UHGV virus genome: UHGV-0335973
Source: a virus
Length of the DNA: 38,029 bases
Reading direction: 5' to 3' (one strand)
Position 1 is the first letter of the stretch. Every line of letters begins with the position of its first letter. A model generated the notes under the pieces. It did not search any database, was not told the DNA's origin, and was given only the letters and a program-made list of their open reading frames with translations. Position numbers and translations under genes: made by a program. Positions 11,825-12,608 of this stretch are shown here, piece after piece.

Positions 11825-12608
11825 AAATAAAACTGCCCATCTAACCTAATTCGGTGGAACTCTCTATGAGACAATACCGAGCAAGGACAGAATACTACCA
11901 CTTTAACAAGGAGGTAGTATGATAGAATATAAAAATACTGGTTATTATATAACCGAGTATGGAGAGGTTATCGGAAAACGTGGTTGGGTATTAAAGCCTT
12001 CAACTACTTCTGGTTACAAAGAAGTTAAGATTTGTGAGAACGGTGAAATCACTTATAAGAGAGTTCATCAATTAGTAGCCGAGTGCTATATTCCAAATCC
12101 TGACAACAAGCCAGTTGTAAACCATAAGGACGGAGACAAGTTCAACTGTCATAAAGATAACTTAGAGTGGTCAACTTATATAGAGAATAGTGCACATGCA
12201 ATCCAAACAGGGTTGCAGAAAACTGGAGTTGATCATTATAACACTGAACTAACTGAATCAGAAGTACATGCAATTTGTAAGCTTCTACAGAATGGCTTAC
12301 CAGTTAAACAGGTTTTCTATGAACTGTTAGATGCTGGTGTGGTCATTTATCCAACAAAGATAACTGATATTAAGCGTCATCAATGTTGGAAAGAGATTTC
12401 ATCTCAATACAGTTGGTAATAGGTTAGTATTCTGTCCGTGTGTAACGACTATCCCTGATGAGTGTAAGGGAGTAGGGCGCAAGCTAATGGCGTTCGAAAT
12501 GGTTGGCCTGTACGACGGTACAGGAAGATATAGTCTGTTCTGCATGGTGACATGCAGCAGTTCATAAGAGAACGGGCAGAAGTGTTGCGGCTTCTGTTGA
12601 ACACCAAG
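11825..12608 (+). mobile_element. group I intron (784 nt) with HNH endonuclease ORF in a peripheral loop
   Basis: P1 pairing exon GGGU with intron GCCC (~11835); P7-like strands GAGACAAT (~11868) and GATATAGTCT (~12527); GNRA-capped hairpins near 3' end; terminal G at 12608; in-frame joining gives ...AEWG|[32 protein letters not shown]. Confidence 0.65.
11919..12419 (+). CDS. intron-encoded HNH homing endonuclease (HNH_3-like)
   Basis: VHQLVAECYIPNPDNKPVVNHKDGDKFNCHKDNLEWST HNH motif; AAGGAGG SD. Confidence 0.7.
   Translation: MIEYKNTGYYITEYGEVIGKRGWVLKPSTTSGYKEVKICENGEITYKRVHQLVAECYIPNPDNKPVVNHKDGDKFNCHKDNLEWSTYIENSAHAIQTGLQKTGVDHYNTELTESEVHAICKLLQNGLPVKQVFYELLDAGVVIYPTKITDIKRHQCWKEISSQYSW

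What the first reader, a model, noticed from the sequence alone, without database searches (positions are those of the whole stretch)
12521..12608. The two introns are paralogs and show compensatory base changes in shared hairpins
The 3' ends of the introns (12521-12608 and 24181-24264) and parts of their 5' ends (~11860-11905 vs ~23618-23660) are clearly homologous. Two stems differ by paired substitutions that keep base pairing: CTGCATG-GTGA-CATGCAG vs CTACACG-GCGA-CGTGTAG, and CAGAAG...CTTCTG vs CAGGAG...CTCCTG. The conserved segment lies in different reading frames relative to the downstream exon in the two copies, so selection is on RNA structure, not protein. This is strong internal evidence for functional introns and implies spread to a second essential gene within the genome.
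Basis: seen in the sequence. Interest (0 to 1): 0.6.

Follow-up and report, generated by a model that had tools for sequence, protein, structure and literature searches.

The report
Two related self-splicing phage introns

Summary
The window comes from a phiEco32-like (Kuravirus) phage. Intron-less phiEco32 genes fix two insertions: 11825-12608 in primase/helicase and 23559-24264 in DNA polymerase. Their 3' ends share 78 gap-free bases at 86% identity. None of the 11 differences there breaks a pair. I counted four compensatory pairs in that segment (P9 x2, P9.2, P9.0). Across ten matched helices plus P9.0 there are 14, against one broken terminal pair.

More than 120 viral contigs and about 800 phage records, including T4-like td and nrdB introns, carry the same 3' motif. 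Covariation across these relatives supports every helix except invariant P7 and P9.1 and poorly aligned P8.

Two parts of the interpretation fail:
- **Reading frame.** The conserved segment lies in the same frame relative to exon 2 in both copies, not different frames.
- **Spread within the genome.** Intron 2's closest relatives sit at the identical DNA polymerase site in unrelated phages and carry the same endonuclease VII-type gene. The two endonucleases are unrelated. No database phage has both introns. A sister grouping gets 6% bootstrap support.

This is a new member of a well-known kind, and ordinary.

The parts
10892..11824 (+). Primase/helicase exon 1; ends on a codon boundary (...GAG TGG GGT)
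   Evidence: 97% identical to phiEco32 primase/helicase up to 11824/11825; codon phase from the phiEco32 CDS
11825..12608 (+). Intron 1, group IA2, 784 nt. U11824.G11835 at the 5' splice site, terminal G12608, no P2
   Evidence: Absent from phiEco32 and most Kuraviruses; Rfam RF00028 27.7 bits, below threshold; helix table; family covariation
11841..11897 (+). Intron 1 5' core: P3 5' strand 11841-11846, P4 11850-11855/11876-11881, P5 11861-11864/11868-11871, P6 5' 11882-11883, P6a 5' 11886-11897
   Evidence: Pairs checked; the same columns covary in the family
11919..12419 (+). Intron 1 ORF, 166 aa, HNH_3-type homing endonuclease, lying entirely in the P6a loop
   Evidence: Pfam PF13392, 28.4 bits against a cut-off of 24.8; 91% identical to the XT73/XT18 'HNH homing endonuclease'
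12425..12535 (+). Intron 1 3' core: P6a 3' 12425-12436, P6 3' 12439-12440, P7 12447-12452/12530-12535, P7.1 12453-12456/12467-12470, AGUA linker, P7.2 12475-12480/12490-12495, P3 3' 12501-12506, P8 12507-12513/12518-12524
   Evidence: the minimum-energy fold recovers P7, P7.1, P7.2 and P8; RNAalifold on relatives
12536..12608 (+).
12609..13466 (+). Primase/helicase exon 2 (starts ATT CCA TAT...), codon phase 0
   Evidence: 98.6% identical to phiEco32 from 12609
22208..23558 (+). DNA polymerase exon 1; ends after the first base of the Tyr codon in ...RDNAKTFI(Y)
23559..24264 (+). Intron 2, group IA2, 706 nt. U23558.G23568 at the 5' splice site, P2 23576-23580/23585-23589 with a GUAA loop, terminal G24264
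   Evidence: Absent from phiEco32; 96% identical to the Bas93/Bas94 intron, where the polymerase CDS is annotated as joined; Rfam RF00028 42.7 bits
23599..23659 (+). Intron 2 5' core: P3 5' 23599-23605, P4 23608-23613/23634-23639, P5 23619-23621/23627-23629, P6 5' 23640-23641, P6a 5' 23645-23659
23680..24180 (+). Intron 2 ORF, 166 aa, endonuclease VII-type. It starts in the P6a loop and runs through P6a 3', P7, P7.1, P7.2, P3' and P8; the stop codon is UGA at 24178-24180
   Evidence: Pfam PF02945, 84 bits; 51-59% identical to the intron ORFs of Berlin, IME184, L006, L056 and L067
24088..24190 (+). Intron 2 3' core: P6a 3' 24088-24102, P6 3' 24105-24106, P7 24113-24118/24185-24190, P7.1 24119-24120/24125-24126, AGUA linker, P7.2 24131-24136/24146-24151, P3 3' 24156-24162, P8 24164-24168/24173-24177
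   Evidence: The P8 3' strand is 24173-24177; the script used 24176 by mistake
24191..24264 (+).
24265..24758 (+). DNA polymerase exon 2 (AT GCG TTC AAC TAC GGT...); the spliced product reads KTFIYAFNYGAG

Best explanation
Both insertions are mobile group I introns of subgroup IA2, the family of the T4 td, nrdB and nrdD introns and of the DNA polymerase introns of T7-like phages. Each RNA folds into P1, (P2), P3-P9 with the P3/P7 pseudoknot, plus the IA2 extras P7.1/P7.2 and P9.0/P9.1/P9.2. It then excises itself by the standard two-step, guanosine-initiated transesterification. Cleavage occurs after the exon U that pairs with an intron G in P1 (U11824.G11835; U23558.G23568), and ligation follows the terminal G (G12608; G24264). 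This restores intact primase/helicase and DNA polymerase reading frames. Each intron carries a different homing endonuclease gene in the P6a loop, HNH_3-type in intron 1 and endonuclease VII-type in intron 2. That enzyme presumably cuts intron-less alleles during mixed infection and drives copying of the intron into them. The two ribozymes look alike because they descend from the same large pool of phage IA2 introns and are under the same structural constraint. Their differences are almost all compensatory or lie in unpaired positions. They most likely entered this phage lineage separately. Intron 2 belongs to a lineage specific for one site in motif B of family A polymerases. Shown here: the precise insertions, the fold, the covariation, the endonuclease families, the distribution among relatives. 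Inferred: splicing and endonuclease activity, and independent acquisition.
For: - Precise insertions relative to phiEco32, restoring the reading frames.
- Rfam RF00028 is the only credible family hit for either intron (27.7 and 42.7 bits, E = 8.5e-5 and 2.3e-9). ORF-less relatives score 70-118 bits against a threshold of 50, while ORF-bearing relatives (L006, Berlin L127) also fall below it.
- The same P7'-P9-P9.1 motif occurs in 796 phage records, including T4-like nrdB/I-TevIII and td/I-TevI introns, and in more than 120 viral contigs.
- Covariation: P9 and P9.2 are 97.6% paired on 112 sequences, score 0.67 vs 0.17 in shuffles, 0/500 shuffles as high, and slid controls score 0.17 or less. 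RNAalifold finds P7, P7.1, P7.2, P8, P9, P9.1 and P9.2 unaided. The full fold with the P3/P7 pseudoknot is 92.4% paired, score 0.52 vs 0.18. In P9.0 the pair types are AU 59, GC 33, CG 18.
- Intron 1 vs intron 2 over 51 matched pairs: 32 identical, 13 changed on both sides, 5 on one side through G.U, 1 broken. P9.0 adds one more compensatory pair.
- Minimum-energy folds recover the helices in both introns.
- IA2 hallmarks as defined in PMC3428280 and PMC4227781 are present.
- Endonuclease families.
- Independent origin.
Against: Neither window intron reaches Rfam's gathering score; the 500-nt ORF insertions explain this but it remains a formal miss. No splicing or cleavage data exist for this phage or for XT73 or Bas93/94. 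The neighbour-joining tree on 185 columns is poorly resolved: the rival grouping of intron 2 with L006/L056/L067 appears in only 17 of 200 bootstrap trees, so independent acquisition rests mainly on insertion site, ORF homology, distances and distribution. The two introns do share a less common loop pair (L7.2 AAGCURAUG, L9.2 UGUUGCGG), and their 3' 78 nt are more alike (86%) than the rest of the core.
Confidence: 0.85

Rival explanations
1. One reading: one intron gave rise to the other inside a Kuravirus genome, by reverse splicing or off-target endonuclease cleavage into the second gene, followed by replacement of the endonuclease ORF and gain or loss of P2.
For: Both introns are in one genome. 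Their 3' 78 nt are 86% identical. They share the L7.2/L9.2 loop variant and a 7-8 bp P9.2. In the 3' tail alone they rank 7th and 5th of 111. The tree does not exclude it.
Against: Over the whole core they rank 16th and 28th of 75. Intron 2 is closer to introns at the same polymerase site in other phages, which carry the same ORF family. The two ORFs are unrelated. The same tails are already present in XT73 (intron 1 only) and Bas94 (intron 2 only), and no database phage has both introns. Sister grouping appears in 12 of 200 bootstrap trees. Several other contigs share the UGUUGCGG loop (L031, L047).
Confidence: 0.1
2. The conserved 3' segment is conserved because it is translated, for example as an N-terminal extension or alternative start of the exon 2 product. 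This is worth considering because it lies in the same frame as exon 2 in both copies.
For: Same frame in both copies, giving similar peptides. In intron 1, ATG 12552 is in frame with helicase exon 2 (mechanical ORF 12552-13466).
Against: There are in-frame TAG codons at 12531-33 and 24186-88, and a further one at 24210-12 in intron 2, created by one of the compensatory changes. Across 112 relatives the stem sequences change freely while pairing is kept. Relatives sit in many unrelated genes. Intron-less phiEco32 proteins are continuous.
Confidence: 0.02
3. The insertions are decayed, non-splicing remnants, or free-standing endonuclease insertions that split the genes into separately translated halves.
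For: Database records of XT73, XT18 and IME184 annotate the halves as separate CDSs. Rfam scores are below threshold.
Against: Every core helix, the U.G pair, the terminal G and the P7 sequence are intact and identical in form to T4-like td and nrdB introns. The split falls inside the polymerase O-helix motif KTFIY|AFNYGAG, where two separate polypeptides are implausible. Bas94 and Berlin are annotated as joined CDSs.
Confidence: 0.03

Closest known systems
[quoted passage not shown]
   Same: Same fold, including P7.1/P7.2 and P9.0/P9.1/P9.2. The P9 hairpin of the td intron of T4-like phage CGG4-1 (CUGCAUG-GUGA-CAUGCAG) is identical to that of intron 1. P7' GAUAUAGUC is the same. The endonuclease ORF sits in P6a and is preceded by a hairpin that hides its ribosome-binding site (PMC2988022). 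T4 likewise carries several related introns in one phage genome.
   Different: Host genes are nucleotide-metabolism genes rather than replication genes. The endonucleases are GIY-YIG or other HNH types. The host is a myovirus rather than a phiEco32-like podovirus.
DNA polymerase introns of T7-like phages: PhiI/W31 with I-TslI (Bonocora and Shub 2004, cited in PMC3428280), Yersinia phage Berlin, Klebsiella phage IME184, cyanophage Pf-WMP3
   Same: IA2 introns in motif B of a family A polymerase. The endonuclease ORF starts in P6a and extends into the core. The Berlin and IME184 ORFs are 58-59% identical to the intron 2 ORF. The 3' domain is about 73% identical to intron 1.
   Different: Insertion sites differ by a few bases: Berlin ACGTT|TATC, window ATCT|ATGC, IME184 TATGCGT|TT. 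The host polymerase in phiEco32-like phages lacks the exonuclease domains (annotation note).
Uncultivated viral contigs L006, L056 and L067 (IMG/VR)
   Same: Intron at exactly the same polymerase position (...AAAACATTCATCT|ATGCAAC...), with the same P1-P2-P3 layout, the same distance between core halves (482-487 vs 481 nt) and a homologous endonuclease VII-type ORF. The core is 75.5-80% identical to intron 2.
   Different: The polymerase exons are diverged (YATMYGGG vs YAFNYGAG). P7.2 is the short form and the L9.2 loop differs.
Kuravirus records XT73/XT18 (intron 1) and Bas93/Bas94 (intron 2)
   Same: Orthologous introns at the same sites, about 90% and 96% identical. They are annotated 'HNH homing endonuclease # Phage intron' and as a joined polymerase CDS.
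   Different: Each record has only one of the two introns. The introns are not discussed in the BASEL paper (0 occurrences of 'intron'), and no paper was found on Kuravirus introns.

Membership tests
Group I intron (Rfam RF00028) | [quoted passage not shown] | tested here: met
   U11824.G11835 with GGG/CCC. U23558.G23568 with UAUC/GAUA. The boundaries come from intron-less phiEco32.
Group I intron (Rfam RF00028) | Terminal guanosine as the last intron base | tested here: met
   G12608 and G24264.
Group I intron (Rfam RF00028) | Conserved core P3-P8 with the P3/P7 pseudoknot | tested here: met
   All helices form in both introns. P3, P4, P5 and P6 covary across 25 relatives. P7 is invariant, and P8 is only 60% paired because MAFFT misaligns it, but RNAalifold recovers P8 with compensatory pairs on 58 sequences.
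Group I intron (Rfam RF00028) | Score at or above Rfam's gathering threshold of 50 bits | tested here: not met
   27.7 and 42.7 bits. ORF-less homologues reach 70-118 bits, and ORF-bearing homologues, including Yersinia phage Berlin (annotated with a joined polymerase CDS), also miss the threshold. The miss therefore reflects the 500-nt ORF insertion in P6a.
Group I intron (Rfam RF00028) | Self-splicing activity dependent on guanosine and Mg2+ | not testable with these tools
   Needs in vitro transcription and splicing, or RT-PCR of infected cells.
Subgroup IA2 | P7.1 and P7.2 hairpins between P7 and P3', linked by G-U-A (definition in PMC3428280) | tested here: met
   CCCU...AGGG-AGUA-GGGCGC...GCGUUC in intron 1 and CC-GAAA-GG-AGUA-CACCGG...CCGGUG in intron 2.
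Subgroup IA2 | Extended domain 9 with P9.0, P9.1 and P9.2, followed by a GAACAC/GAAUAU-type motif (PMC4227781) | tested here: met
   P9.0, P9.1 and P9.2 are present, with tails GAACAC (12599-12604) and GAAUAU (24254-24259). P9.0 and P9.2 covary. P9.1 is invariant in my sample because it was part of the search anchor, but it varies with pairing kept in other family introns.
Homing-endonuclease-bearing mobile intron | An endonuclease ORF of a recognised homing family within a peripheral loop | tested here: met
   PF13392 HNH_3 at 28.4 bits (cut-off 24.8) and PF02945 Endonuclease_7 at 84 bits (cut-off 23.6), both starting in the P6a loop.
Homing-endonuclease-bearing mobile intron | Presence/absence polymorphism at a precise site among close relatives | tested here: met
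   In each of the two megablast searches only 2 matching records covered at least 80% of the query (intron plus flanks); the listed Kuravirus records matched only the exon flanks (about 29% coverage).
Homing-endonuclease-bearing mobile intron | The endonuclease cleaves the intron-less allele | not testable with these tools
   Needs a cleavage assay on phiEco32-type target DNA.
Intragenomic duplicates (paralogs by spread within this genome) | The two copies are each other's closest relatives, apart from orthologs | tested here: not met
   Ranks 16 and 28 of 75 by identity and 5 and 26 by corrected distance. The sister split appears in 12 of 200 bootstrap trees, and the smallest clade holding both contains 22 of 76 taxa.

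The most novel reading that the evidence does not exclude
Intron 1 would be a documented case of a phage IA2 ribozyme moving to a new, non-homologous site (primase/helicase) from a polymerase-intron lineage within a Kuravirus ancestor, with later swap of the endonuclease cargo. The unusually similar 3' 80 nt and the shared L7.2/L9.2 loops would be the trace of that event, or of recombination between co-resident introns.
Probability: 0.1. Interest if true: 0.4.

Novelty: new member of a known kind. Interest (0 to 1): 0.2.

Why it matters
It matters mainly for annotation. The primase/helicase and DNA polymerase of this phage should each be annotated as a single spliced gene, not as fragments, as is currently done for XT73, XT18 and IME184. 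Rfam's default threshold misses such ORF-bearing introns.

It adds phiEco32-like podoviruses, and a primase/helicase site, to the list of hosts of the T4-type IA2 intron family. I found no paper that discusses introns in this phage group.

It says nothing new about how group I introns work. Compensatory substitutions between related group I introns, and several related introns in one phage genome, are textbook features. The family alignments made here could seed a better covariance model for ORF-bearing IA2 phage introns.

Tried and rejected
- **Rfam at gathering threshold** on the whole window gave nothing. Only the permissive search found RF00028. The other weak hits (HIV_POL-1_SL, RsaJ, SNORD60) lie on the opposite strand inside the HNH ORF, far below threshold, and were dismissed as chance.
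- **A single covariance model of the full intron** was considered and dropped. The 500-nt ORF in P6a would exceed the model's window, and the search tool cannot take ORF-deleted sequences. I used MAFFT alignments with hand-placed structures instead.
- **MAFFT registers.** MAFFT places the inner part of P9.2 (7-8 bp with an 8-nt loop in the window, 6 bp with a 9-nt loop in most relatives), P8, and the long and short forms of P7.2 in inconsistent registers. Only the consistently aligned pairs were counted, so P8 scores just 60%.
- **Orthologs of intron 1 outside Kuravirus.** A 33-nt pattern search returned two unrelated introns that share only P4-P5.
- **Neighbour-joining with bootstrap** on 185 columns did not resolve relationships either way. 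I treat it only as absence of support for sisterhood.
- **A third intron in the window.** GATATAGTC and AACGACTA occur together only at the two known sites.
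Full report
**What the window is.** The two regions match phiEco32-like coliphages (Kuravirus, Gordonclarkvirinae) at 96-99% in their exon parts. The intron-less phiEco32 primase/helicase and DNA polymerase genes align to the window in two blocks each, with nothing missing from phiEco32:
- Primase/helicase is interrupted by window 11825-12608 (784 nt).
- DNA polymerase is interrupted by window 23559-24264 (706 nt).

In both, the upstream exon ends in U and the insert ends in G. Joining the exons restores ...AEWG|IPYP... 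and ...KTFIY|AFNYGAG..., the O-helix (motif B) of family A polymerases.

**Check of the observation.**
- A repeat search finds 12524-12601 and 24179-24256 as a 78-nt gap-free match at 86% identity. Shorter matches lie at 12440-12463/24106-24129 and 11896-11915/23656-23675.
- Global alignment gives 75% identity over 159 nt of the 3' domains and 70% over 93 nt of the 5' parts. The two ORFs in between do not align.
- Both quoted hairpins exist. CUGCAUG-GUGA-CAUGCAG vs CUACACG-GCGA-CGUGUAG differ by G-C->A-U and U-A->C-G. CAGAAG/CUUCUG vs CAGGAG/CUCCUG differ by A-U->G-C.
- Of the 11 differences in the 78-nt match, six form these three compensatory pairs. One is the 5' half of a fourth (P9.0: G12537-C12602 vs A24192-U24257). 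One turns the outermost G.U of P9.2 into G-C. Three lie in unpaired positions (J8/7, J7/9 and the N of the GNRA loop). None breaks a pair.
- The minimum-energy folds of both 3' tails recover P9, P9.1 and P9.2 (z = -2.5 and -3.9).

**What the hairpins are.** Rfam's only credible match for either insert is the group I intron model RF00028, at 27.7 and 42.7 bits, below the threshold of 50.

Reading the sequence with that guide gives a complete fold for both inserts, checked pair by pair:
- P2 with a GUAA loop, in intron 2 only.
- P3, P4, P5 and P6.
- A long P6a stem (12 and 15 bp) that encloses the start of the ORF.
- P7 (GACUAU/AUAGUC), then P7.1, an AGUA linker and P7.2.
- The P3 3' strand, then P8 and the P7 3' strand.
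- P9.0, P9 with a GNRA loop, P9.1 (GUUC-AUAAGA-GAAC) and P9.2.
- A GAACAC or GAAUAU tail and the terminal G.

P7.1/P7.2 joined by G-U-A, together with P9.0/P9.1/P9.2 followed by a GAAYAY motif, are the published hallmarks of subgroup IA2 (PMC3428280; PMC4227781).

**Evidence from relatives.** A sensitive search with the 189-nt 3' part of intron 1 hits 796 phage records. They include:
- T4-like nrdB introns with I-TevIII and td introns with an I-TevI homolog.
- nrdD introns of Vibrio phages.
- The polymerase introns of Yersinia phage Berlin and Klebsiella phage IME184.

The td intron of T4-like phage CGG4-1 has a P9 identical to that of intron 1.

Between the anchors, P9 takes dozens of sequences, all forming a 7-bp stem with a GNRA loop.

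The covariation counts are:

| Alignment | Helices tested | Cells paired | Covariation score (observed vs shuffled) |
|---|---|---|---|
| 112 distinct 3' tails | P9, P9.1, P9.2 | 97.6% | 0.67 vs 0.17; 0/500 shuffles as high; slid controls 0.17 or less |
| 112 distinct 3' tails | P9.0 and the outermost P9.2 pair | 98.5% | 0.65 vs 0.28; 0/500 shuffles as high |
| 23 ORF-less relatives plus the two window introns with ORFs cut out | full fold including the P3/P7 pseudoknot | 92.4% | 0.52 vs 0.18 |

- The positions that differ between the two window introns are among the most variable pairs in the family.
- In P9.0 the variable pair is AU 59, GC 33, CG 18.
- RNAalifold on 58 diverse 3' domains finds P7, P7.1, P7.2, P8, P9, P9.1 and P9.2 without any input from me.
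- In the full-fold alignment, compensatory changes occur in P3, P4, P5 and P6.
- The ORF-less relatives pass Rfam's threshold with 70-118 bits. ORF-bearing ones (L006, Berlin) fail like the window introns do. The sub-threshold scores therefore reflect the ORF insertion, not a poor fold.

**Whole-intron comparison of the two copies.** Over 51 position-matched pairs in P3, P4, P5, P6, P7, P7.1, P7.2, P9, P9.1 and P9.2:

| Outcome | Pairs |
|---|---|
| Identical | 32 |
| Changed on both sides with pairing kept | 13 (P3 x4, P4 x2, P6 x1, P7.2 x3, P9 x2, P9.2 x1) |
| Changed on one side through G.U | 5 |
| Broken | 1 (terminal pair of P5 in intron 2) |

P9.0 adds a fourteenth compensatory pair. The P1 guide sequences differ completely, each matching its own exon.

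**The sub-claim that is wrong.** Exon 2 of primase/helicase begins at codon position 1, and exon 2 of the polymerase at codon position 2. Both phases were checked against the phiEco32 CDS coordinates. This one-base difference cancels the one-base difference in tail length. In both copies the exon 2 frame, read backwards, gives the same frame of the conserved segment (RKI*SVLHGDMQQFIRERAEVLRLLLNTK|IPYP and VMI*SILHGDV*QFIRERAGVLRLLSNIR.AFNY).

RNA-level selection is still the right conclusion, for other reasons:
- There are in-frame TAG codons. One of them, in intron 2, was created by a compensatory change.
- Stem sequences change freely across the family while pairing is kept.
- Relatives are inserted in many unrelated genes.

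**Were the introns copied from each other within this genome?** The evidence points against it, without excluding it.
- **Cargo.** The ORFs are unrelated: HNH_3 (28.4 bits) vs Endonuclease_7 (84 bits), with no BLASTP similarity.
- **Architecture.** Intron 2 has P2 and its ORF runs through the core to J8/7. Intron 1 lacks P2 and its ORF lies wholly in the P6a loop.
- **Distribution.** XT73 and XT18 carry only intron 1 (about 90% identical). Bas93 and Bas94 carry only intron 2 (96%). The many other Kuraviruses carry neither, and no record carries both.
- **Similarity.** Over the 5' core plus the 3' domain, intron 2 is 80% identical to L006 and about 75-76% to L056 and L067. Intron 1 ranks 28th of 75 for intron 2. 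For intron 1, Berlin (73%) and L110 (73%) come first, and intron 2 ranks 16th.
- **Insertion site.** L006, L056 and L067 interrupt polymerase genes of quite different phages (YATMYGGG rather than YAFNYGAG) at exactly the same position...TTCATCT|ATGCAAC.... They have the same spacing of core halves and an endonuclease VII-type ORF 51-53% identical to that of intron 2. Intron 2 thus belongs to a site-specific lineage that moves between phage polymerase genes.
- **Tree.** A neighbour-joining tree on 185 well-aligned columns does not make the two lineages sisters, and the sister split appears in 12 of 200 bootstraps. The tree is weak overall: the L006 grouping gets only 17 of 200.
The 3' 78 nt are unusually similar (ranks 5 and 7 of 111 in the tail alone), and the two share the loop pair L7.2 AAGCURAUG and L9.2 UGUUGCGG. 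However, XT73 and Bas94 already have these tails while carrying one intron each, and L031 and L047 share the L9.2 loop.

Several relatives of this family commonly sit together in one viral contig (up to four in L096, three in L102). T4 carries three introns of this subgroup (my own knowledge; not checked in the paper read).

**How it most likely works.** The mechanism is inferred from the fold and from the biochemistry of this family. The pre-mRNA folds. Exogenous guanosine bound in P7 attacks after U11824 or U23558. The freed exon, held by P1, then attacks after the terminal G, which is positioned by P9.0 and P10, and the exons are ligated. The endonucleases, whose ribosome-binding sites and start codons lie in hairpins, would be made from a subset of transcripts. 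They would cut or nick intron-less alleles in co-infecting relatives, so that repair copies the intron in. Stop codons directly after exon 1 (TAA at 11828-30, TGA at 23558-60) would truncate the product of any unspliced RNA.

**Novelty and verdict.** This is a correct observation of an ordinary thing. GenBank records already mark the XT73 and XT18 ORF as a phage-intron endonuclease and join the Bas94 polymerase CDS. I found no paper discussing introns in this phage group. I file it as a new member of a known kind, with low interest.

Noticed in passing
window 12536-12537 with 12602-12603; 24191-24192 with 24257-24258: A 2-bp P9.0 pairing joins J7/9 to the GAAYAY tail. Across 112 relatives the second pair is AU 59, GC 33, CG 18, UA 1.
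   Followed up: yes
window 12481-12489 (L7.2) with 12583-12590 (L9.2); 24137-24145 with 24238-24245; family loci L003-L133: The fourth base of the L7.2 motif AAG[N] covaries with the purine of the L9.2 motif U-N-[R]-C-G: C with G 57 times, U with A 40, U with G 7, A with A once, in 105 introns. This points to a loop-loop tertiary contact (GC/GC or GU/AC). It is probably the long-range pairing described for the T4 sunY intron in the 1990s, but that is from memory and I did not verify it in the literature.
   Followed up: partly
window 11892-11920 and 23652-23684: The Shine-Dalgarno sequence and AUG of both endonuclease ORFs are enclosed in a hairpin (z = -3.9 and -3.8; XT73 has one too). The stems differ in sequence between the two introns while the loop ...AACAAGGAGG is shared. 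[quoted passage not shown]
   Followed up: partly
window 23545-23558|24265-24275; L127 (Berlin) about 965-975; L125 (IME184) about 1140-1160; L006, L056, L067: Three different IA2 intron insertion sites lie within 11 nt of the polymerase motif B coding sequence: Berlin ACGTT|TATC, window/L006/L056/L067 ATCT|ATGC, IME184 TATGCGT|TT. They were inferred from P1, the terminal G and frame restoration. All three carry endonuclease VII-type ORFs.
   Followed up: partly
L096 (4 sites), L102 and L064 (3 each), L041, L050, L077, L081: Many uncultivated viral contigs carry two to four introns of this family within a few kilobases. Some are ORF-less copies only about 330-450 nt apart. The genes they interrupt were not examined.
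   Followed up: no
window 12552-12608: ATG 12552, inside the 3' strand of P9 of intron 1, is in frame with helicase exon 2, giving the mechanical ORF 12552-13466. It could in principle give a helicase-only product from unspliced RNA, as T7 gene 4 gives 4B. More likely it is a coincidence, because the same P9 sequence occurs in the td intron of T4-like phage CGG4-1.
   Followed up: no
window 11828-11830 and 23558-23560: An in-frame stop codon follows exon 1 almost at once in both introns: TAA two codons into intron 1, and TGA spanning the splice site of intron 2. The same was noted for the Pf-WMP3 polymerase intron (PMC3428280).
   Followed up: no
L003, L134 (XT73, XT18), L125 (IME184): Public records annotate the interrupted primase/helicase or polymerase as separate CDSs rather than as a spliced gene. 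The XT73 and XT18 records are also linearised inside the intron.
   Followed up: no
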